NCBI GenBank assembly: GCA_002269645.1
Contig: NIVC01000021.1
Location: 1-64,000, forward strand
DNA: 64,000 nt
From: Macrostomum lignano
Lineage: Eukaryota
Direction of reading: 5' to 3'
Shown: positions 19,801 to 62,863 of the stretch, piece after piece
Position numbering within the stretch: the stretch's first letter is position 1
How the letters are laid out: every line of letters begins with the position of its first letter
Position numbers and translations under genes: made by a program
The notes under the pieces: generated by a model
The model's input: only the letters and a program-made list of their open reading frames with translations
Told to the model about the DNA's origin: nothing
The model's database searches: none

Positions 19801-22217
19801 GGGCGATTGCAGCATGACGCAGTCGGCGTTAATAATTTCCTGTTTCTGGTTCCAGAAGTTCACGTGGTCGCATTTGTACCGGTTTATATTAAAGCTGAGG
19901 ACGACACCGTCAGGGACCACCTGCTCCTGCCCTCTCAGGTCCTCAAAATAATAAATCCACGTTTCCATCGACTTGTTCCGAGCCATAACCACTATTGGGG
20001 GGCTGGGCGCGCAGTAGGGGCCTTCTGTCTCTTCATTACCGTCTGCGTCCGTCAGGATGATGATGAAGCCGCTCATGCGACAGCTCGGATCAGGCGGGTC
20101 GGTGTACAAACCGAATCGAGTAAAGTTAAAGTACACATCGGACTTCCATTCAGCGGATTTGATGTAGAGCGGCACGGTTAGCTGCACAGATCTCTGTCTG
20201 GGTTGAATTGCGTGCATTTTTTCCTGTAAAGATTTGAACGAGTAGAAGAAGCTGAAGTTTTTATAGGTAGCGATTTGTGAGTCGGCAATCATTGGACTGT
20301 CGCCAACTTCGCTGGAATCGTTGCCCATGCGGTCTCGCATTCTGCTGGCCTGGACAGTCAAAACTAGCGGGTCCAGCACTCGAGAGTAGAGCGAGAATAC
20401 AAACACCATCATCTGAGGCGACAGCCTGTCAAATTCTACCGGGTCAAGGCAGGTCAAGCCGGTCGTGTTCGGCTCGTTCATGAAGTTGTGCTCCAGAAGG
20501 TCCCTTGGTGTAGGAGACGCCATCAGCCGGTCCGAGTAGGCCAAGATCAGGTTTCTGTAGCACTCGGATTGGTTGCGCGAGGTTGCGTTGACGAAAGACA
20601 GCGTAGCGTTGATTTTTCTGGCGTAGGCGGTCTCGAACTTGAAGATGTAGGTGCTGTGGTTGTAAAAGGCGCTGTCAATCTCCGTGACGTAGTTCGGCGC
20701 CACTTGGCTGAGATCGATAGTCACGGGCTTGTCATCTTCCAGAGTGAACTCGTCAATGCGCTTGCGGTACTCCCACTCTTCCCTCTTCAAGTCGGTGTAC
20801 CGGATTCTGAACCGGCTGGTGGACTTGCTGTCAGTTCTGAAGGCGATTGAGGCCGAATCGGAGTTAATGTGGTAGTAGAACGGCGTTCGATAGCCGCAGC
20901 CATAATCGTTGAAAGTTTCGTTGCCAATGGCATGAATGATCTCTAGCCGGTCGTACACACAGCTTGCGCCTGAGTAGTCCAACCGGAACGATTCGAAGTC
21001 AAGCAGCAACATCCTTCGTGGCGAGCTCGAAGTTATGTTTACATAGCATAGGCTCACGCGGTCCGCATTGGGCCTGTCGATTGAGACGATGCTATCCGTT
21101 GTGGCCTCGAGGTTCTGCTCTCCGCTGATGCAGTGCACGGGCAGGTACTGCGACAAAGTCACCTTGAAGCCCGTTTTCTCAATTTGACTGTCCGATCGAA
21201 AGATTAACCGGATGTCCGAGCCAAGGTTCTTCCAGACGGTGTCTTGTCGGCCGTCGCTCAGGGTGCAGACGCTGCCGCAGCATTCGACGCTGGAGTTGAA
21301 AGCGGCCTCTTCAAACACCAGACTGTCCCGAACGCAAGACTGGTCGTCCGGCTTTTCAATGTGCAGGTGGCTGAACTTGATTTGGAACAGGGCGCCGGGC
21401 TCAGTGGCGCGGATGAGCACGGAGCAGTTGACATTCGGTGGATAGAGATTGCTATCGTTGCTTATCCTCGGTGAGTATATTGTGATGAGAGAGCTCTGTA
21501 CCACAGGTACGTCGTTATGAAGATCGCAGATGCCGTACCTATGGTGGGGTATTTTTAATCCTATTGTCTAGTTAAATGTGATGGAGAGTTGAGAGTCACT
21601 GTGTTGGAGAGTTGGGAGTCACTGTCTTGGAGAGTCTGGAGTCACTGTCTTGGAGAGTCTGGAGTCACTGTCTTGAAGAGTTGGCAGTCACTGTCTTGGA
21701 GAGTTGGGAGTCACTGTCTTGGAGAGTCTGGAGTCACTGTCTTGGAGAGTCTGGAGTCACTGTCTTGGAGAGTTGGCAGACACTGTCTTGGAGAGTTGGG
21801 AGTCACTGTCTTGGAGAGTTGGGAGTCACTGTCTTGGAGAGTTGGGAGTCACTGTCTTGGAGAGTTGGGAGTCACTGTCTTGGAGAGGTGGGAGTCACTG
21901 TCTTGGAGAGGTGGGAGTCACTGTCTTGGAGAGTTGGGAGTCACTGTCTTGGAGAGGTGGGAGTCACTGTCTTGGAGAGGTGGGAGTCACTGTCTTGGAG
22001 AGTTGGCAGTCACTGTCTTGGAGAGGTGGGAACCACAATCGGTAGCCAAGCTCCAATTTTAGGAGCTAGGGTGGGAAACTCACCCTGATTCAGTAAATTT
22101 CGGATTGTACGCCGATTCCAGCAGCTGATTTGGCTCAAGACCATCGTGACCGTGGCTGTGCGGCTGCGGCAGCTGCACGCACACCAAGGCGAATAGCAGC
22201 AGTCCGACTCGCTCCAT
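13802..22217 (-). CDS. Giant GRL101-like leucine-rich-repeat GPCR (~2,130 aa): signal peptide, CUB x3-5, C-type lectin x2, LDLa x~6, LRRs, 7TM. Exons 22217-22084, 21538-19159, 19011-18679, 18304-17461, 17133-16914, 16595-16095, 15784-13802; apparent 1-nt deletion near 16513
   Basis: All six introns are GT-AG with matching phases (2,0,0,1,2,0). CUB motifs YPPNVNC/FRSD..GF; CTL WISFNNSCY...FEWSNG; LDLa CLDGTCISSDGQCDGKKDC; LRR LRYLDLSNNEI; RXFP/LGR-type 7TM (CLALFGNLFVI, LSLADLLMGVYL, DRY, CWLP, PINSALNPYLY). Confidence 0.9.
15782..16045. repeat. 29-bp minisatellite (GAGCTGTGATGGGGGTGGATGTCAATTAT), about 9 copies, filling GPCR intron 6
   Basis: Period 15782/15811. On the minus strand each unit contains CATCCACCCCCATCACAG, the acceptor sequence. 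Confidence 0.95.
21583..22030. repeat. 23-bp minisatellite GAGTCACTGTCTTGGAGAGTTGG filling GPCR intron 1
   Basis: Period 21781/21804. Confidence 0.95.
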
Positions 22218-22710
22218 GAATTGCCTTCGCATCGGGCCGTTGGCGTCGGCAGACCGCTGGGCTGGCAATCAAGTTTAGTGCTGTCGACTGTTTCGGCTGG
22301 GCAACTGAGTAAAAATACGCCAAAACTGTAGTGAGGAATTGCAGCTCCCTGGCCTGCTTGGAGAGTCCCTGCAGTTTCTACTGGAAAGAGAGACAGCGGC
22401 AGGGAGACGGGGGAAGGGAGACGCAGAGGTGGGACGGCAGCTCGCGAGAAGCAGCTGGCGGCCTCCCAGAGCTTATCGCAGCCACCAGCAGTGCGAATCG
22501 AATGCGCAGTCCGATGAATTTAATGACTCGGTGGCCCCGCTTATCGCACTGCAGTGCGGCTACGGGTTTCGAGTCCGCCTGCCGAGTTTACTGGTTGCGA
22601 GGCCCAGGGGCCCCCTGGATCTAAACTGTGGCTTTGTTGTTAATTTAATGGCTTTTCACCTCTCCATTCTGTCCATGACGCACAGGCGTCTACGACAACT
22701 GACTGTCGCC

Positions 22711-22962
22711 AACCCCAACCCTAGCCTAAACCCTAACCTAAACCCTAGCCTAAACCCTAACCTAAACCCTAACCTACACCCTAGCCTAAACCCTAACCTA
22801 AACCTTAACCTACACCCTAACCTAAGCACAAGCCTAAACCCTAACCTAAACACTAACCTAAACCCTAAACAAAAACCCTAACCGAAACCATAAACTAAAC
22901 CTAAACTAAACTCTAAACTAAGCCTAAACTAAACCCTAAACTAAGTCCCAACCTAAATCCAA
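22711..22962. repeat. Degenerate telomere-like (CCTAAA/CCCTAA)n tract
   Basis: A 12-bp CCTAAACCCTAA period that decays rightward. Confidence 0.8.
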
Positions 22963-23266
22963 ACCTTTGAATTGTCGGGCGTCAAATAGCTAGCAATCAA
23001 TTCGCTGACAGTTTTTGACGACATTCAAACGTCCTAAATGTTACAAAAATGTAATTTTATGTACAAATCATACTACTGCGATAACAGTAGTATAAATCAG
23101 CAAGAGATCAGATAGTGAGCAAAAATAGGATTTTACATGCTTTTGAAGAAATCGGTCTTATTATTTACCATATTTTTATTTCTATTAAAGTCCAACAACG
23201 TTTTGACAGCAATTTCGATTCAAAATAGAAAAAGAAGAACAAGTCGGTCGAGTGCCAGAATAAGCA

Positions 23267-25494
<2,228 letters not shown>

Positions 25495-49754: not shown

Positions 49755-50847
49755 ATGGAAACCTGCATCAGTGAGTTAACATTGATTTTTAAAATCGTTT
49801 CTTGGTGCAAAAAGAAAAACGCAAGTCCTACATGCTATCATTTTTTCAGGCCATCTGCTGGTTGCGCTGCTTTGGTCCGCCCGGCTGACCGACTGCGAGA
49901 GTTTGTCAAGTGACTGGATGAGGTTGGGACTGCCGCAGTGCCTGCCCGAGGCCCAGGCCGTGAGGGTGGCCGAAACTCCATCCGGCATCTCCGACTGCGT
50001 CCTGCTCGCCATGGCTACAAAGGACTCGAGCGGCCAGCTGGTGGCCCAGTTCGACTCGGACACTCGCCAGTGCTCGCTCTTCCAATACACCGCAGTGTGC
50101 CACCTCATCGATGGACTCGCTGCTGCAGAGAGCTCGCAGTCCCGCCGCTGTGCCGCATTCGCCAATGACAGAGCCGCCAAGTTCCTCACCTTGAGCAGAA
50201 ACCTGGGCGCCAAGCTGAAAGCCGTCTGGGTGATGAGCGACGATGCGGACGCCAGCAGGAGCAACTTGGTGTGCGGCCAGACGCAGCAGTGGATGTCGGA
50301 GAATGTGGAGTGGAGCAGCGAGGGAGCCAAGCTCGACGGAGTGTCGTCCAAGATGTGGCTGGAGAACGTGGAGCTCGCGAACCTGCAGCAGGGACTCACG
50401 TGGCTGCTCAGGCTCAAGCGGGATGCCAAGATCGCTCCGCTGTTGCAGACTTACAACTGCGACTCCAAGTCTCTGGGAGCTGCTCTCTGGGACGGCTCAC
50501 CGACAGCTTGGGGCTTGTACTTTTTCAGGGTGGCTCCATCGTATTCAGTGTTCAAAACAACTCTGGAAACAAACTTTTTTGAACGGAACAAATTCGCCGA
50601 AGTTGCCGTAACTTCGGCATCTCCCTTTGACGTCGAATTCTTTTCCAAGGTTGGGCGTGTGTCAAAACCGAATGTAGTGCAGATGGAAAACTATACTATT
50701 GCTGCGGTCCCAAAAATCAACTGCATTGGTTTGGGGTTTCGACCTGGAAGGTCTCAAATGTTGAAGGGCACGGTGCAGGCGGTGGCCATCATGAACGACA
50801 CGATGACGGAGGCTGAGATCAGCAGCTTCTTCGAATTGGTGCGCTGA
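49755..50847 (+). CDS. Secreted PAN-like plus LamG/ConA-like protein, copy 1; exons 49755-49770 and 49850-50847
   Basis: ATG GAA ACC TGC ATC A|GTGAGT ... TTTCAG|GC gives METCISHLLVALLWSARLTDC. PAN-like DC...VAQFDSDTRQCSL. LamG-like end LKGTVQAVAIMNDTMTEAEI (cf. F-x-G-x-I-x-x-V-x-I-x-x-x-x-L-S-x-x-E-I). Confidence 0.75.
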
Positions 50848-52045: not shown

Positions 52046-53166
52046 ATGGCACTTTTTCTGACCTGTGCGCCAGCTTATGTGGGTGAGTTTGAGTGGGTTT
52101 TCTCGAATACCGAACTGCAAACTCAATCGCTCCGGACATTCTTTTTAAATATCTACCAGGTCACCTTCTGGTTGCGCTGCTTTGGTCCGCCCAGCTGACC
52201 GACTGTGAGAGTTTGTCAAGTGACTGGATCAGGCTTGGACTGCCGCAGTGCCTGCCCGACGCTCAGGCGGTAAGAGTGGCCAAAACTCCATCCGGCATTG
52301 GCTGCATCATGATCGCTATGGCTACAAAGGACTCGAGCGGCCTGCAGGTGGCCCAGTTCGACTCGGACACTCGCCAGTGCTCGCTCTTCCAATACACCGC
52401 AGTGTGCCACCTCATCGATGGACTCGCTGCTGCAGAGAGCTCGCAGTCCCGCCGCTGTGCCGCATTCGCCAATGACAGAGCCGCCAAGTTCCTCACCTTG
52501 AGCAGGAAGCTCATGCTGGGTGTGGGCTCGAAGCTGAGGGCCGCCTGGGTGATGAGCGACGATGCGGACGCCAGCAGGAGCAACTTGGTGTGCGGCCAGA
52601 CGCAGCAGTGGATGTCGGAGAATGTGGAGTGGAGCAGCGAGGGAGCCAAGCTCGACGGAGTGTCGTCCAAGATGTGGCTGGAGAACGTGGAGCTCGCGAG
52701 CGTGCAGCAGGGACTCACGTGGCTGGTCAGGCTCAAGCGGACTGTCCGAGTGGAGGCAACGCTGCTCGAATCCTTTAGCTGCGACTTCATGGCTCTTTGT
52801 GCGGGTTTTTGGGACGGCTGGACTGGTGGATGGGGCCTGTACTTCTTCAGGGTGGCTTCATATTACTTTGAGTACTTCACACCTTCTGCCACGAACTCGT
52901 TTGACCCGAATGGATTCGTAGAGGTCGGCGTTACTTCGGCGTCTCCGTCAAGCCGCGACTTCTTCTCTAACTCCGGGTTCGTGCCGCGGTCTGCTGTGAA
53001 CACTGGTTCTCAGCGTAACGGCGCCGTGTCGACATGCAACTGCATCCGCTTGGGATTTCGACCTGGCGACCTGCGAATGCTGAAGGGCACGGTGCAGGCG
53101 GTGGCCATCATGAACGACACGATGACGGAGGCTGAGATCAACCACTTCTTTTTTCTGGTGCGCTGA
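52046..53166 (+). CDS. Secreted PAN-like plus LamG/ConA-like protein, copy 2; exons 52046-52082 and 52160-53166
   Basis: MALFLTCAPAYVG|GTGAGT ... ACCAG|GT HLLVALLWSAQLTDC. Same intron position and phase as copy 1. Confidence 0.75.
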
Positions 53167-56210: not shown

Positions 56211-56922
56211 ATAAAAATTGCTCTTTTTGCGACAAAAGCCCGCTGTTGCGATCGATCTGCTGACTCTATTTCGATATTCCACTCCATCCTTTTGTGACTT
56301 CCACTCAATGATGCTTTTAGGAGCAGAAATGTAATCAAATTTGCGTATTAACGACATTAAAAGTCTTCTTTGCAACTTTAGGGAATACAAGGGTAAGTTA
56401 TGGGGTTCGTTCTGGTTTGAGGACGTTTTTTAGGCAGAAAAAAAACCAGCCCCTAAAGTTCCAGTGTGAGCACAGCTCTCCAAGTTTTAATCATTCGAAT
56501 TCGAATATTTTTGATGAAGAGTAGCTGGGCTGACGATAGTCATTGCAGTGGTAGTTTGGTGTAGTTCGAACTACCCAGCTGGCTCACTGAGCTGAGGTTG
56601 CTCGATGTTGTCTTGAATGTAATAAAACAAACTCAAGCAAGTCCAAACTCACTCAAATGTTAAATTAGCAAAGAGAAATTATATTTATGCAAAACAACAA
56701 AGGGCTATTAGCTGCAGGATTTTACATGTGAATTCGGAATCGGAATTGGTATTGCATAGATACAGCGTCGGGACACACGCAAGCAGAGAAAACTCGGGCA
56801 ATCCACAATCCACGCAAATTACAAAGTTGAGTAATAATTTTTTACATGCACAACTTAGAAACATGAGAACAGCAGTGTTAAAGGGTTATTTTACTCAAGT
56901 TCACCGATTCTGCTGCTTGGCC

Positions 56923-57193
56923 AGTAGTATATAAAAAGACGCTTCTAGACCCAGAGCACTTTTTTAATGACCGTTTTAAGGGTCTAGAGGGGGGACACGG
57001 GGGGTAAATAAAAAAACACATCTAAACACCATTAATACATCTAATCACCCATAATCACCCCTAACAATAAAAATCACTTCCAAACACTTCCAAACACTCC
57101 CCAACACCCCCCTCGCGTCCCCCCTCTTAAGACCTTACAAACGGCCATTAAAATAAGGTCTGATCTAGAAGCGTCTTTTTATATACTACTACT
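56923..57193. repeat. Self-inverted terminal unit: 27-bp perfect plus ~60-bp imperfect inverted arms, both beginning AGTAGT
   Basis: AGTAGTATATAAAAAGACGCTTCTAGA (56923-56949) versus TCTAGAAGCGTCTTTTTATATACTACT (57164-57190), plus an extra ACT. Confidence 0.95.
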
Positions 57194-57275
57194 CTATAAC
57201 CCCTAGCCCGCGCCGCAGGCGCGAAGGGTCGGAAAGAATAGAAGCTATTTATAGTCAGCTCACCTACCCACCCAA

Positions 57276-57373
57276 CATTCCATTTAGACCAGATTTTAGA
57301 CCAAATTTTTGAAAACGAAAACCAAAACGATAGTCTAGTTTTGTTTGGTCTAAAATCTGGTCTAAATGGAATG
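57276..57373. repeat. Perfect 30-bp inverted repeat upstream of the first viral ORF
   Basis: CATTCCATTTAGACCAGATTTTAGACCAAA (57276-57305) / TTTGGTCTAAAATCTGGTCTAAATGGAATG (57344-57373). Confidence 0.95.
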
Positions 57374-57411
57374 CAGACAATCTTTTTCTGTTACTAAAAA
57401 TAGAACAAAAA

Positions 57412-57810
57412 ATGACACACGTTACACATGTGCAAAATATAAATGAGTATCAGGTAGGAGATCCAATTGAATACCGAGGTGAGGGACTTTTTGATTTGGT
57501 TGGAACAGCAGCAAATTTTGTTAAAGACAATATGGGGCTTATAGGGCAAGCTGGCTCTGCAGCAGGCTCTATAACAAATGCTGTAAAAGGAGGAATTGAA
57601 GCAGCTAGAGCGGCAGAAGAACTAAAGAAATTGAGAGATTTTAACGACACCCTCTCACAAATAAATGCAATAAAAGATTTAAAGCTGGCACAAGCCGCAC
57701 AACCAACAGAAACCCCCACGAAAAGCGCACCAATAAGTAATAAAGATATTCAGGATTTTAATAAAATGTTAAATACTATTAAAGGTGGAAAAGGATTAAA
57801 GAAATTTTAA
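57412..57810 (+). CDS. Polinton putative virion core/membrane-active protein (132 aa)
   Basis: RGEG-LFDLVGTAANFVKDNMGLIGQAGS is an amphipathic segment after a GxG motif; C-terminal GGKG-LKKF. Confidence 0.6.
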   Translation: MTHVTHVQNINEYQVGDPIEYRGEGLFDLVGTAANFVKDNMGLIGQAGSAAGSITNAVKGGIEAARAAEELKKLRDFNDTLSQINAIKDLKLAQAAQPTETPTKSAPISNKDIQDFNKMLNTIKGGKGLKKF

Positions 57811-57820
57811 CAATATAAAA

Positions 57821-58813
57821 ATGGACTCAGTTAATGATGAAAACCGGTTATATTTTATAGGAGAAATTGTAGATACCTTAAATCTTGATGATAATAAACA
57901 TAGCCACACAATGTTAAAAAGATTGGATCGATTAGGTAAAAAGTTTGACTACGACATCGATACATTTAAACTCGCAGCAAAATATGCACAAGAAGGAAGG
58001 CCAATATCCTTTAAGAATCGCGGCAGAAATTATAGGTTGACAGACTCCGATGTGAAATTTTTAATGGAGACTCACACTAAAAAGGACGGCGGATTACTAC
58101 CCATTCTACCGCTTCTTTTAGGACTTGGTGCAGCTGGAGCAGTCGGTTTAGCCGGAAAAAGAATTCATGATAATGTAAAACAGCTAGGAGAGTTAAGAGC
58201 GAAACAGGGGGGAATCTTACCCCTTGCAGCTTTGCTCCCAATAATTTTTGCAGGAATTGGAGCAGCTGGAGGAGTTGCTGGCGGAGCAGCTGGAATTGCA
58301 AAAGCAGTAAATGACAAAAAAGCTGCGGACGAAAAAGCCAAACGAGATGCAGAATTTCAAAGACAGCAAATAACGCAGGACGCACAATTCAAACAGAAAC
58401 TTATTGATACCATTAATAGTAGTTCAGCAACAGCAGAGCAAAAAAGAAATGCAGAAGCTAGGTTAGCAGCCGGAAAAGGTTTACTCTTGCAAGGAACAAA
58501 TCACGGGAATGGTTTGGTACTAAAAGGAACAACCCAAGGAAGTGGAGTTGTAGCAGATAAACTACATGAATTTGGTCAAACTTTAGAAAAAACGGGTGAG
58601 AAAGCTAAAGGATTTTTTGACAATATTGGATCCAATTTTAGGCCAGCAGTTCAGAAGATTTTTACTAAGTTAGGAAAAGATTTTAATATCATTGAAAAAC
58701 ACGACGGAAGCGGATTATATCTCGAAATGAGACCAAAAGCAGGTTCAGGAATTTTCTTAAATTCAAACGTTATGGGCAATGGATTGCTATTACCAAAAGC
58801 AGATCTCGAATAG
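57821..58813 (+). CDS. Polinton core-protein precursor with adenovirus pX-like segments (330 aa)
   Basis: GG-LLPILPLLLGLGAAG and GG-ILPLAALLPIIFAGIGAAGGVAGGAAGIAKAVN resemble adenoviral pX GG-FLPALIPIIAAAIGA; six further GxG-hydrophobic motifs. Confidence 0.7.
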   Translation: MDSVNDENRLYFIGEIVDTLNLDDNKHSHTMLKRLDRLGKKFDYDIDTFKLAAKYAQEGRPISFKNRGRNYRLTDSDVKFLMETHTKKDGGLLPILPLLLGLGAAGAVGLAGKRIHDNVKQLGELRAKQGGILPLAALLPIIFAGIGAAGGVAGGAAGIAKAVNDKKAADEKAKRDAEFQRQQITQDAQFKQKLIDTINSSSATAEQKRNAEARLAAGKGLLLQGTNHGNGLVLKGTTQGSGVVADKLHEFGQTLEKTGEKAKGFFDNIGSNFRPAVQKIFTKLGKDFNIIEKHDGSGLYLEMRPKAGSGIFLNSNVMGNGLLLPKADLE

Positions 58814-58896: not shown

Positions 58897-61800
58897 ATGG
58901 AAGCAATTTTAGCTCAAATCGACAACCCTGAACTTAGAGCACAATTAATAGCTCAAATCGATGCACAACGAATTGCCGATAGGGCTGAAATAGAAGCAAG
59001 AATTAGGGCAGAAAATGAGATACGTTTAGAAAGACAATTAAATGATATTAATAACCCCCAACCACAAGTACAAAATGGAGCTGAAGTAATATATATAGAT
59101 ATAGATATAAATACAAATTATAAAGAATATTTTAAACAAATGAAAGATAAATTAAAGACTATATTAAACAATTATACTATAAGGCCAAATAACAAACGAC
59201 AGCCAATTAAGTATAAAATAGAAGTTGAAACAGAATTTAAAAAACCAAATATTCTTAATGCAAATTCAGAAATTGAAGTAATAAATAACTTTTCACAAGA
59301 ATCATATAAAACATTATTATCAATGGGAAATTACAACAATCAATTCGATCAAATAGAAGCTGAGTTTGATGAATGGATAGATAAGATGACAGAAAACGGA
59401 TCTGGGTTTATATTTGTATCCTGTAATTCAGCAATAGTAAAGATTGCACCTATAGAAATTCTTAAAGGACGATCACATATGAAGCTCAAATTTAAATCAC
59501 CTATGATTATAAATCCAGACAATAAAGATAATAAATGTTTATTATGGTGTTTATTAATTCATAAATATCACAATCAAGTAGAATCACACATTAATAAAAT
59601 ATATAATTATAGACAATATGAGGATGAAATAATAATGAAAAACATATCATACCCAGTAGCAATAGATGATATATATAAGATTGAAAAAATGAATGGTTTA
59701 AATATTAATGTTTTTACAATTGAAGAACCAAAAGATCTAGAAGAAATTCAGCAGGTCGATCCAGAATGGTATAAGAAAAACTGTTATCTTGTTAAGCCAG
59801 CAACTGATATAACAGCACCAGATCAAATCGATCTTTTGTACATGCAGCGCGAAAATGAAACACATTATATATACATAAAAGATATTAGTTCTTTTTTAAG
59901 AGAAAATAGAAATAGATATCCACTATGTAGAAATTGTTTTACATTTAAAAAGGATGAAACAGCTCTTAAAAACCACCAACGATTTTGTTTAGATCACAAA
60001 TTTACTAATGCTATAATGCCAGCATCTGAAGATGCAACCCTAAAGTTCCAACAACATTATATGGCAGTTAAAAAACCAATAGTAATATATGCTGATTTTG
60101 AAGCAACAAATGTTCCCTTAAAAGAATCACAGACGGTATCTGATGACGGTGAATGCACAAAAAAATTGGCACAACAGTTTCCGAATAGTTATTGTATATA
60201 TGTACACTCTGTAGCTGATCATATATTTAAATCAAGGATGATTACTTACCACGGTAATTATGCAGCTAAGCACATGGCAGAATCATTAGTAAATGTATTT
60301 GAATATATTCAAAATCAATATGATAAATTATCAAAAAATATTAATATGACAAATAAGGATAGAGACAATTATAAAAATGCAACAAATTGTTTTATGTGCA
60401 AAAGACATTTAAGTAAGAATAATAAGATACGAGAACATTGTCATCTAACAGGAAATTATCGAGGGGCAGCATGTAGATCATGTAATGCAAAAGAAGGAAA
60501 AGGATGTAAGGAAATACCAGTATTTTTTCATAATGGTTCCGGATATGATTTTCATTTCTTAGTTCGAGAATTGCTTCATTTAGGAAAGGATGAATATGAA
60601 ATAAATATATTACCTAAAACATCAGAAAATTACATATCAATAACATATGGTAAGAAATACTCCCATCTAGTTTTTCTAGATTCCTTGAGATTCTTATCAA
60701 CATCTTTAGCAAATGTTGTTTCATCATTAGTTCCAAAACCATGGGATTTAGAAATAGTAAAGAAAAACTTTCCAATCTTATTGAATCGTTTCAAAAAAGA
60801 AAAACTATCCGAGGAAGAACTAATGCTATTAACTCGTAAGGGCATCTACCCATATGAATATGTAACATCTGAAGACGTATTTTTTCATACCGAATTACCC
60901 CAATTGAAAAGTTTTATTCAACATTATCACAAACAAACATAAGTGAATCGGATTATGAACACGCTCAAAAAGTATGGAAATACTTTAATTGTAAAACATT
61001 TAAAGATTATCATAATCTATATCTTAAAGCAGATGTTCTCCTATTAGCTGATGCATTTGAAAACTTTAGGAATCATACATATGAGAATTTTAAAATTGAT
61101 CCCGCATATTGTTTCAGTGCACCGGGATTAACATGGGCTTGTGGTTTGAAACATACAGATGTTAAGATTGATTTACTAACTGATCATGATATGTTGTTAA
61201 TGATTGAGAGAGGAATTCGCGGTGGATTCTCGGGTGTACTAGGAGATAGATATACTAAAGTAAATAATAAATATCTACCAAATTATAATAAAAAAGAAAA
61301 ATCATCATATGTATTATATCTAGATGCAAACAATTTATACGGTGGTTGTATGAAACAAAAATTACCAATAGCTGATTTCCAATGGGAAGATGACCCCGAT
61401 TATTACAAAAATATTCCCGAAGGAAGGGGCTGTATCGTAGAAGTGGATTTGCAATATACTCGGGAAGCAAAAGCAAAAACATATAAATATCCTTTAGCTC
61501 CAGAGCATTGTTCAGTTAATGAAGATGATTTATCACAAACACAAAAAGATTATCTTAAAGTAGATAATACAAAACATCTAGCAACAAAAAAATTAATATT
61601 AAATTTACATGATAAGAAAAACTATGTAGTGCATTATAAGCTTCTACAATTTTATGAAAAGCAGGGATTAAAAGTGTCTAAAGTACATCGAACAATATCG
61701 TTTATTGAGGAAGATTGGTTAGCTAAATATATTGACTTTAATTCAAATCAGAGACAGATGTCAAAAACAAATTTTGAGAAAGATTATTGGAAATTAATGA

Positions 61801-62863
61801 ATAATGCTTTTTATGGAAAAACGGTTGAAAATATTAGAGATAGAACCCAATTCCATTTAGAAAAGGATATTGATAAAGCAAAGAAATATTTCTCAAAACC
61901 TAACTTTAAAGACTTTATAAAATTTGATGATAACTTTATGGGTATTCATATGAGAAATAAAACAACAAAATTTCTTAAACCAATATTTATTGGAATGGTT
62001 GTTTTAGATTTGCAAAGCTAGTAATGTATGAATACTATTATGATGTTATAAATAAAACATGGCCAGATAACTATCCAATATATGCAGACACCGACAGTTT
62101 GGTATTTAAGGTTGAAACAGATGACCGGACGGAGTCCGCGAACCAAAGGTTCGATGTCTATAAAGATATGGAAAAAATTAAGGATACATTGGATACCTCC
62201 GACTATCCGGATAACCATCCTTTAAAATCAGATCAAAATAAAAAAGTTGTACTTAAAATGAAAGATGAATTAAATAGCAAAATCATAACCGAGTTTATAG
62301 CAATAAGATCAAAATGCTATGCATTTAAGGTTTTAGGACAGGAGGGAGAGGTAAAAAAAATAAAAGGGGTATCAAGAGCAGCAGTAAAAAAGATAACATT
62401 TGATGATTATAAAAACGTACTTTTAGATTACCTTAATACAATTGAAAATTATCATGCTCCACAATATCGATTAAATTCAGATAAGCATCAGATGTTTGTC
62501 ATCGAGACAGATAAAAAAACATTAAGTCCATTTGATGATAAAAGATATTTAGATGATAAAATTAAAACATATCCATATGGTTTAAAAGAAGAGATAAAAA
62601 ATATGATAAAAGATAAAAAACAAAAAGAAGATATAATAAGTAAATATAATGAATACAAAGCGGCAATAAATAATTATTATTACGATTGTGATTGTGAATC
62701 CGAATGTGATTGTGAATATAATACATTTCTAGAATATGAAAAAGATATAGATAATTATTATTCAACATTTCCAAAAGAACTTAAAAAATTAAATAAGGAA
62801 AAAGTCTTGAATAACTGGAAGAGATTAACAGAAAAATTACTTATCGGGTCTGTAAAAAACTAA
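58897..62863 (+). CDS. polB: Protein-primed family B DNA polymerase with endonuclease-VII-like insert; split by two apparent 1-nt deletions (60898-60901, ~62013)
   Basis: Exo I IYADFE; CFMC...IREHCHLTGNYRGAACRSCN; Exo II FHNGSGYDFHF; KGIYPYEY; motifs A YLDANNLYG, B KLMNNAFYGK, C YADTDSL. The bridging frame 60902-61145 reads PIEKFYSTLS...HAQKVW...YLKADVLLLADAFENFR. Confidence 0.95.

What the first reader, a model, noticed from the sequence alone, without database searches (positions are those of the whole stretch)
56923..57400. Polinton left end is a self-contained double-terminus unit followed by two more hairpins
Seen: the AGTAGT-initiated 27-bp terminus recurs perfectly, inverted, only 240 bp inside the element, with ~60 bp more of imperfect arm and a C/A-rich spacer. 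Then come a GC hairpin (CGCGCC-GCA-GGCGCG, ~57208-57222) and a perfect 30-bp inverted repeat. Flanks TTGGCC and CTATAA are not a 6-bp TSD. Established: Polinton TIRs begin with short AG/AGT repeats used in protein-primed slide-back initiation and normally pair with the far end of the element. Inference: either (a) a 270-bp minimal satellite or defective mini-Polinton with two origins, replicated and integrated by the helper's PolB and integrase, or (b) a novel TIR that can fold on itself and offers an inward- and an outward-facing origin. Perfect conservation of exactly the terminal 27 bp with diverged inner arms argues for function rather than a sequencing fold-back artefact.
Basis: partly seen in the sequence, partly recalled or inferred. 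Interest (0 to 1): 0.85.

Follow-up and report, generated by a model that had tools for sequence, protein, structure and literature searches.

The report
Polinton ends that fold on themselves
Both ends of this virus-like jumping element carry an inverted copy of their own tip about 240 bases inside, and changes shared by the two copies suggest each end likely folds into a stem-loop while single-stranded, which would give a lead on how Polintons copy and repair their ends.

Summary
Real, but not a left-end oddity or a satellite. It is the outer 268 bp of the 308-bp terminal inverted repeat (TIR) of a ~17.7-kb multi-copy Polinton. Both ends carry it. The window's right end lies on contig C2840, followed by TTGGCC, and an independent sample holds the empty site. 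No solo units were found among 89 inner arms. The arms co-vary across sister subfamilies: 642 of 675 cells pair, against 561±9 permuted. Two copies have the inner arm overwritten by the outer arm over 54-55 nt, and one has a 19-nt templated extension ending at the GCA hairpin, so ends likely fold back in vivo. A sister type keeps the stem but has no inner AGTAGT, so the fold is conserved, not a second origin. The terminal unit was never seen inverted, while the left-only 30-bp repeat's spacer flips between copies. Best reading: a local panhandle that likely rebuilds a duplex origin and repair template on displaced strands. Related families in the genome lack it, so a self-maintained by-product remains possible. 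Terminal palindromes were recently reported in protist virophages and PLVs; this long-loop form in a pPolB Polinton was not found in ten searches.

The parts
56917..56922 (+). 6-bp target-site duplication TTGGCC, left copy
   Evidence: One right end in the genome is followed by TTGGCC (C2840); its TIR matches at 306 of 308 bases; a contig of another study runs from this flank straight into the C2840 flank (run X16)
56923..57230 (+). Left TIR of the Polinton, 308 bp
   Evidence: Query positions 1-308 match the right ends of 6 full elements; divergence begins after position 308
56923..57005 (+). Outer arm of the fold-back: (AGT)2 terminus, 27-bp tight stem, then about 55 bp of imperfect stem
57006..57105 (+). 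100-nt G-free A/C-rich loop
   Evidence: loops of 91-142 nt with 0-5 G in the 11 ends folded
57106..57193 (-). Inner arm: inverted copy of the terminus (57164-57190) followed by one further ACT
   Evidence: followed by AC in 73 of 73 type-A ends (66 ACT, 7 ACA)
57209..57223 (+). GC hairpin with a GCA triloop, shared by both terminal types
   Evidence: 235 exact genome matches; of the 100 listed, 97 have GCA, 2 GTA, 1 the inverted TGC; its fold alone is only z -1.7
57231..57382 (+). Left-only optional insert of 152 bp
   Evidence: Absent from right ends (joint 57230-57383) and from 8 of 20 further left ends
57276..57373 (.). 30-bp perfect inverted repeat whose 38-nt spacer occurs in both orientations among copies
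   Evidence: 9 as in the window, 19 inverted, of 28 left ends with distinct flanks; both states also in the sister terminal type
57383..57414 (+). Motif shared by both ends, just before the first ATG; likely a promoter or leader (inferred)
   Evidence: 21-bp match to right ends; precedes the terminal ORF at both ends
57412..58813 (+). Two ORFs of unknown function (132 and 330 aa)
   Evidence: no Pfam match over cut-off
58897..62863 (+). Protein-primed family B polymerase, in three frames in this assembly, with an endonuclease VII-like domain
   Evidence: (PF02945, E 8.7e-07); sister copies match PF03175 over cut-off

Best explanation
The feature is the outer part of a Polinton terminal inverted repeat, present at both ends, that likely folds back into a long stem-loop when the element's own polymerase displaces a single strand, and would then give each end a local duplex origin and a repair template without having to find the far end. 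Shown: the architecture at both ends, the target-site duplication, co-variation of the arms, and scars of copying between the arms of one end. Inferred from adenovirus, PRD1 and phi29 replication: the element replicates by protein priming and strand displacement, and a displaced strand needs a duplex end to restart. Inferred: the fold supplies that end about 240 nt away instead of 17.7 kb away; polymerase switching onto the folded arm keeps the arms matched; the GCA hairpin halts self-primed extension. The flipping spacer of the left-only 30-bp repeat is read as a by-product of the same single-stranded phase.
For: Both ends carry it: 58 of 60 fetched ends could be parsed, and all 58 have the inner copy at 258-269 nt. 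Co-variation: 25 distinct outer/inner 27-mer pairs from 73 ends pair in 642 of 675 cells, permuted 561±9, maximum 595 in 5,000; 14 columns show double changes. Positions 28-84 score 341 against 243±21, 0 of 5,000 shuffles as high; the sister type pairs in 234 of 250 cells against 223±3. Copying within one end: C1307 and C3750 have the inner arm overwritten by the outer over 55 and 54 nt, and in C1307 a private change is on both arms. C2245 has the outer end extended by 19 nt complementary to the inner flank, stopping one base into the GC hairpin. Position 10, outer/inner: T/T 6, T/G 23, G/G 26, G/T 0 among 55 distinct ends, Fisher p 0.024. Unrelated sequence, same design: the sister type with a stem starting 8-14 nt inside the end, a 99-nt fold-back at both ends of C944 (integrase 62% identical) and a 75-nt one on an insert in C1051. 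The panhandle model and the need for a correctly placed displaced strand are from PMC11886824 (passages) and PMC4150772 (abstract).
Against: No folded molecule or free linear form was observed. Copying between arms explains co-variation without any benefit. Copies share ancestry, so the permutation tests overstate significance, and in only 6 of 14 ends did the outer arm fit its own inner arm best. Other Polinton families in this genome have no inner terminus copy: C114, C759, C754, C393 and C781, C1095, which share C944's integrase type. Left and right TIRs of one element stay nearly identical (300-366 matches in 300-372 columns in nine pairs), so long-range pairing likely still happens. The extension scar is one case. 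In phi29, origins with plain single-stranded overhangs work poorly, which the offset type must avoid. Folding energies do not say which strand is selected.
Confidence: 0.5

Rival explanations
1. Self-maintained by-product: a template switch once copied the tip inward, and recurrent switching keeps the arms matched without any benefit to the element.
For: Conversion scars show the upkeep mechanism exists. Several families lack the structure. 23 of 58 ends tolerate a mismatch at position 10. The 30-bp spacer and once the 3-nt loop also invert with no sign of cost.
Against: Four unrelated sequence solutions at the same place. Loops of 91-142 nt stay nearly G-free while their sequence turns over. 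The terminal unit was not found inverted by two searches that would catch it, unlike the inner spacer.
Confidence: 0.25
2. Hairpin self-priming as in parvoviruses: the folded 3' end primes the second strand directly. This model was proposed for terminal palindromes of protist virophages and PLVs.
For: In type A the 3' end pairs to the last base and points inward; the 19-nt extension in C2245 is such a product. Proposed in bioRxiv 10.64898/2026.07.28.741278 (passages).
Against: Hairpin transfer should invert the terminal unit, and no inverted unit was found. The 12 type-B ends leave 8-14 terminal bases unpaired and could not prime. The one extension stops at the GC hairpin. The ends keep the (AGT)2 motif.
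Confidence: 0.1
3. Cruciform in the integrated duplex, cut by the endonuclease VII-like domain of the polymerase to release the element precisely.
For: In type A the branch point would lie exactly at the host junction. The domain aligns with T4 endonuclease VII, weakly (E 0.085; Pfam E 8.7e-07).
Against: The same motif is in polymerases of families with no fold-back (C114, C759, C754, C393, C781). A 100-nt loop and an imperfect stem disfavour extrusion (general knowledge). Type B would be cut 8-14 nt inside the end. No solo footprints were found.
Confidence: 0.08
4. A 270-bp satellite or MITE sits at the element's end.
For: The unit has two termini and looks self-contained in the window.
Against: It is within the TIR at both ends and the target duplication flanks the whole element. 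No solo units among 89 inner arms.
Confidence: 0.02

Closest known systems
Polintons/Mavericks with 5'-(AGT)2//(ACT)2-3' ends (PMC8097293, section 7 and passages read)
   Same: Size 17.6-18.3 kb in five copies, TIRs of about 300 bp, 6-bp duplication, (AGT)2 ends, pPolB, rve integrase, A32-like ATPase
   Different: Each TIR holds an inverted copy of its own tip. The word 'hairpin' occurs 0 times in that paper's main text, and 'hairpin' and 'palindrom' occur 0 times in the nematode Polinton preprint
Terminal palindromes of Halocafeteria seosinensis virophages and PLVs (bioRxiv 10.64898/2026.07.28.741278, passages read)
   Same: Palindromes inside TIRs, next to the target duplication, in integrating relatives of Polintons
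   Different: Theirs are compact (52 nt shown; searched with gaps up to 10 nt) and go mainly with non-pPolB replication genes. Here the element is a pPolB Polinton with an ~83-bp stem and a ~100-nt loop, with co-variation, conversion scars and no inversion of the unit
Streptomyces terminal-protein telomeres (PMC5449611, abstract and passages read)
   Same: Terminal palindrome pairing with an inner partner, GNA-loop hairpins, fold-back repair of shortened 3' ends before protein priming. Closest in how it may work
   Different: Bacterial end-patching by Tap and Tpg after replication from an internal origin, no family B polymerase, structure on the 3' overhang. Here the GNA loop is on the 5'-end strand. 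No homology is claimed
Adenovirus, PRD1 and phi29 panhandle model (PMC11886824 passages, PMC4150772 abstract)
   Same: Protein-primed strand displacement; a displaced strand regains a duplex origin by intramolecular pairing
   Different: Pairing there is between the two genome ends; here a partner lies about 240 nt from each end
Parvovirus/AAV terminal hairpins with flip and flop forms (recalled, not read here)
   Same: Self-complementary ends; two orientations of a spacer between inverted repeats
   Different: Here the terminal unit does not flip, the flipping spacer is internal and optional, its T-shaped fold is not better than shuffles (z -0.98), and no Rep gene was recognised among the ORFs scanned

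Membership tests
Polinton/Maverick | Protein-primed family B polymerase | tested here: met
   Sister copies match PF03175 over cut-off; polymerase motifs in window ORFs; the window's split ORFs alone had no PolB Pfam hit
Polinton/Maverick | Retroviral-type integrase | tested here: met
   PF00665 rve, E 4e-08, over cut-off, in copy C1530
Polinton/Maverick | TIRs of 100-1500 bp with (AGT)2 ends | tested here: met
   308-bp TIR at both ends
Polinton/Maverick | 6-bp target-site duplication | tested here: met
   4 of 6 full copies (the two misses are likely assembly mis-joins, inferred), 8 of 9 sister elements, C581, and the window with its empty site
Polinton/Maverick | Capsid module (major and minor capsid, ATPase, protease) | tested here: inconclusive
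   ATPase gives a weak Pox_A32 hit (E 0.006, below cut-off). The 490-, 170- and 148-aa ORFs are assigned by size, position and recall only; no Pfam capsid or protease hit; no fold was run
Non-autonomous MITE or satellite | Free-standing short units with their own target duplication | tested here: not met
   0 solo units among 89 inner arms
Rolling-hairpin (parvovirus-type) terminus | Terminal hairpin present in flip and flop forms | tested here: not met
   No inverted terminal unit
Rolling-hairpin (parvovirus-type) terminus | 3' end paired and able to prime | tested here: inconclusive
   True in sequence for type A, not for the 12 type-B ends; one natural extension
Terminal-protein-capped fold-back end (Streptomyces-like function) | 5'-linked protein and in vivo fold-back repair | not testable with these tools
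   Needs free DNA and biochemistry

The most novel reading that the evidence does not exclude
These Polintons replicate through self-contained telomere-like ends. Each displaced strand rebuilds its own origin by local fold-back, and the inner copy also stores the two bases (AC, found after the inner copy in 73 of 73 type-A ends and in C944, but not in the C1051 insert) that integrase would trim. A copy leaving the chromosome could then restore its full end from itself.
Probability: 0.25. Interest if true: 0.85.

Novelty: new variant of a known kind. Interest (0 to 1): 0.6.

Why it matters
How Polintons replicate and leave the chromosome rests largely on analogy; even for adenovirus and PRD1, direct evidence of the panhandle is said to be lacking. 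This family holds sequence scars of fold-back at its ends: compensatory changes, arm-to-arm copying, a templated extension and small inversions. It also has natural controls in the same genome, with a flush stem, an offset stem, short stems and no stem. That turns a general model into oligonucleotide-level tests, and suggests that terminal modules are swapped between Polinton lineages independently of the integrase.

Tried and rejected
No relatives with DNA context were found outside this genome: viral contigs with the capsid-sized protein, its 4-sequence alignment and the GC-hairpin pattern gave none; metagenome contigs gave none; the protein search gave 3 relatives at 41-49% without context. 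How far the trait extends beyond this species is therefore untested. An AAV-like T-shape for the 38-nt spacer was dropped (z -0.98 and -0.03). A free MITE origin of the 30-bp repeat was not supported: 90 arm matches genome-wide, and all 12 extra places fetched were Polinton left-end inserts. A link between fold-back ends and the endonuclease VII-like domain was rejected. Rfam gave only generic hairpin matches below gathering scores. No RNA holder was listed among sequencing runs. Earlier scan notes: three look-ups, nothing. The original Polinton paper could not be read under the id tried, so its model is known here only through other papers and recall. Repbase, Dfam and all supplements were not seen and may describe such TIRs. 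One row of the alignment was a wrong 10-base stretch, so its conservation line was not used. Two of 60 ends (L028, L063) were not parsed, and three ends with duplicated flanks were dropped before the position-10 count.

Full report
Observation. Perfect 27-bp arms lie at 56923-56949 and 57164-57190, and perfect 30-bp arms at 57276-57305 and 57344-57373. The 27-mer has two window matches against 0.00 expected. The first 271 nt fold into one stem-loop, z -14.9, with a 100-nt loop that has no G. Contigs of four separate studies cover the region in overlapping pieces; one runs from the loop through the inner copy to the GC hairpin, and none spans everything. It is not an artefact of this assembly.

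What it belongs to. The window ends inside a Polinton. A genome search scored 40 of 279 candidates and gave 39 near-full matches at 90-100%; all 30 fetched continue into the same first genes. Six full copies carry positions 1-308 (1-287 in one) inverted at the far end, so the double terminus is part of a 308-bp TIR at both ends. Four of these six have a 6-bp duplication; the two misses are likely mis-joins (inferred from flanks shared with other contigs). Five copies measure 17.6-18.3 kb and encode an rve integrase and a family B polymerase. One right end in the genome is followed by TTGGCC, and its TIR matches the window's at 306 of 308 bases. A contig from another study joins the window's flank directly to that contig's flank, which is the empty site.

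No satellite. The terminus pattern has 239 exact matches. The inner arm in its common form has 89. Only one is followed by a base other than A, and it is an internal point variant. Solo units with random flanks would have shown in about three cases of four.

The fold is what is kept. Sister subfamilies found through the integrase keep the design with changed letters. Among 73 type-A ends there are 25 distinct outer/inner pairs. They pair in 642 of 675 cells against 561±9 after permutation, with double changes in 14 of 27 columns. The imperfect part co-varies too: 341 against 243±21, although the own arm ranked first in only 6 of 14 ends. These tests ignore shared ancestry. Twelve type-B ends have an unrelated stem that starts 8-14 nt inside the end and has no inner AGTAGT; they also co-vary, and both full type-B elements compared have near-identical TIRs, one of them with a matching duplication, as does C581. 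A second family (integrase 62%) has a 99-nt fold-back of other sequence at both ends of C944, and an insert in C1051 ends in a 75-nt one (that element was not characterised). Against universality, C781 and C1095 of the second family and four more distant elements have no inner copy.

Scars of folding. A search for outer-type arms preceded by the inner flank found three places. In C1307 and C3750 the inner arm has been overwritten by the outer arm over 55 and 54 nt, with the loop in its normal orientation; in C1307 a private change sits on both arms. This is what a strand folding on itself and copying its own 5' arm would leave (inference). In C2245 the outer end runs on for 19 nt complementary to the inner flank and stops one base into the GC hairpin, as a folded 3' end extended by a polymerase would; it is one case. 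At position 10 the outer/inner states are T/T 6, T/G 23, G/G 26, G/T 0 (p 0.024), which fits copying from outer to inner but is a modest signal, since recombination among copies also shuffles these states.

The other hairpins. The GC hairpin is common to both types: 235 matches, and of 100 listed 97 have GCA, 2 GTA and 1 the inverted TGC. GNA loops are the compact hairpins of Streptomyces telomeres. It is lost or broken in C1530 and C734. The 30-bp repeat lies in a 152-bp insert found only at left ends and missing from 8 of 20 further left ends. Its spacer is as in the window in 9 and inverted in 19 of 28 ends; a tree of the adjacent 1.4 kb needs 6 changes (at least 3 forced), not clustered. 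Both states also occur in type B. Recurrent inversion is likely, recombination is not excluded, and the T-shape is not significant. The terminal unit itself was not found inverted.

Mechanism. Protein-primed polymerases displace one strand, which is thought to regain a duplex origin by pairing its two ends; phi29 origins need a correctly placed partner strand and work best with a few unpaired terminal bases. I infer that here each end folds locally, giving the displaced 3' end a duplex or forked origin and a template for repair, as fold-back repair does in Streptomyces. Long-range pairing likely persists, since left and right TIRs stay nearly identical. Confidence that the ends fold in vivo is about 0.85; that the fold serves initiation or repair, about 0.5. 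Rivals are a by-product kept by template switching (0.25), hairpin self-priming (0.1; no flips, type B cannot prime) and cruciform excision (0.08; the nuclease motif is also in families without the fold).

Novelty. Ten literature searches were run. The nearest report is a 2026 preprint on compact terminal palindromes in virophages and PLVs of a protist, mostly without pPolB, which proposes hairpin priming and calls for a wider survey (passages). Some casposon TIRs hold palindromes (passages); bidnavirus ends do not form hairpins (passages). HNH insertions in Polinton polymerases are known (passages). PMC11296320 and PMC8363768 were read as passages and hold nothing on this point. No description of a long-loop fold-back in a pPolB Polinton was found, but Repbase, Dfam, supplements and the original Polinton paper were not seen. 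Verdict: a real, family-wide new variant of Polinton ends with sequence evidence of folding, function inferred; interest 0.6.

Noticed in passing
G000 C173:199634-208632, C491:285031-295129, C558:479036-488550, C1158:30380-40909, C566:83278-92763 (loci L153-L175): 9-10.5 kb elements with a PolB match, TIRs of about 0.9-2.6 kb, 6-bp duplications and reversed ends (5'-ACTACT...AGTAGT-3'; ACTACG in C566). None of six proteins of the window's family matched them. Four carry 3-7 GCCGCAGGC words in the first 600 nt, all on the 5'-end strand, including the same GCA hairpin.
   Followed up: partly
L196, L198, L203 (left ends on C77, C283, C870): Other, unrelated inserts occupy the same spot right after the TIR where the window has its 152-bp insert; the site looks like an insertion hotspot.
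   Followed up: no
L179 (C1040, about 22350-25400): A type-B element of about 3 kb with both TIRs, a likely internal-deletion derivative.
   Followed up: partly
G000 C110:524403-535074: 5.3-kb tandem duplication at 99.9% inside one copy, real or assembly error.
   Followed up: no
L177 (C904, about 20940-21500) and L178 (C349:312303 on): C904 has a degenerate tandem duplication of loop, inner arm and GC hairpin; C349 lacks the inner tip and GC hairpin and joins the inner arm to the leader motif.
   Followed up: partly
window 49918-50847 and 52309-53166: Two related ORFs (309 and 285 aa) in a local duplication upstream of the element; the first has no Pfam match.
   Followed up: no
element ORFs: Most genes start after an A-rich TAAAAATG-like context, a shared leader motif that resembles promoters of cytoplasmic DNA viruses (resemblance recalled, not tested).
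   Followed up: no
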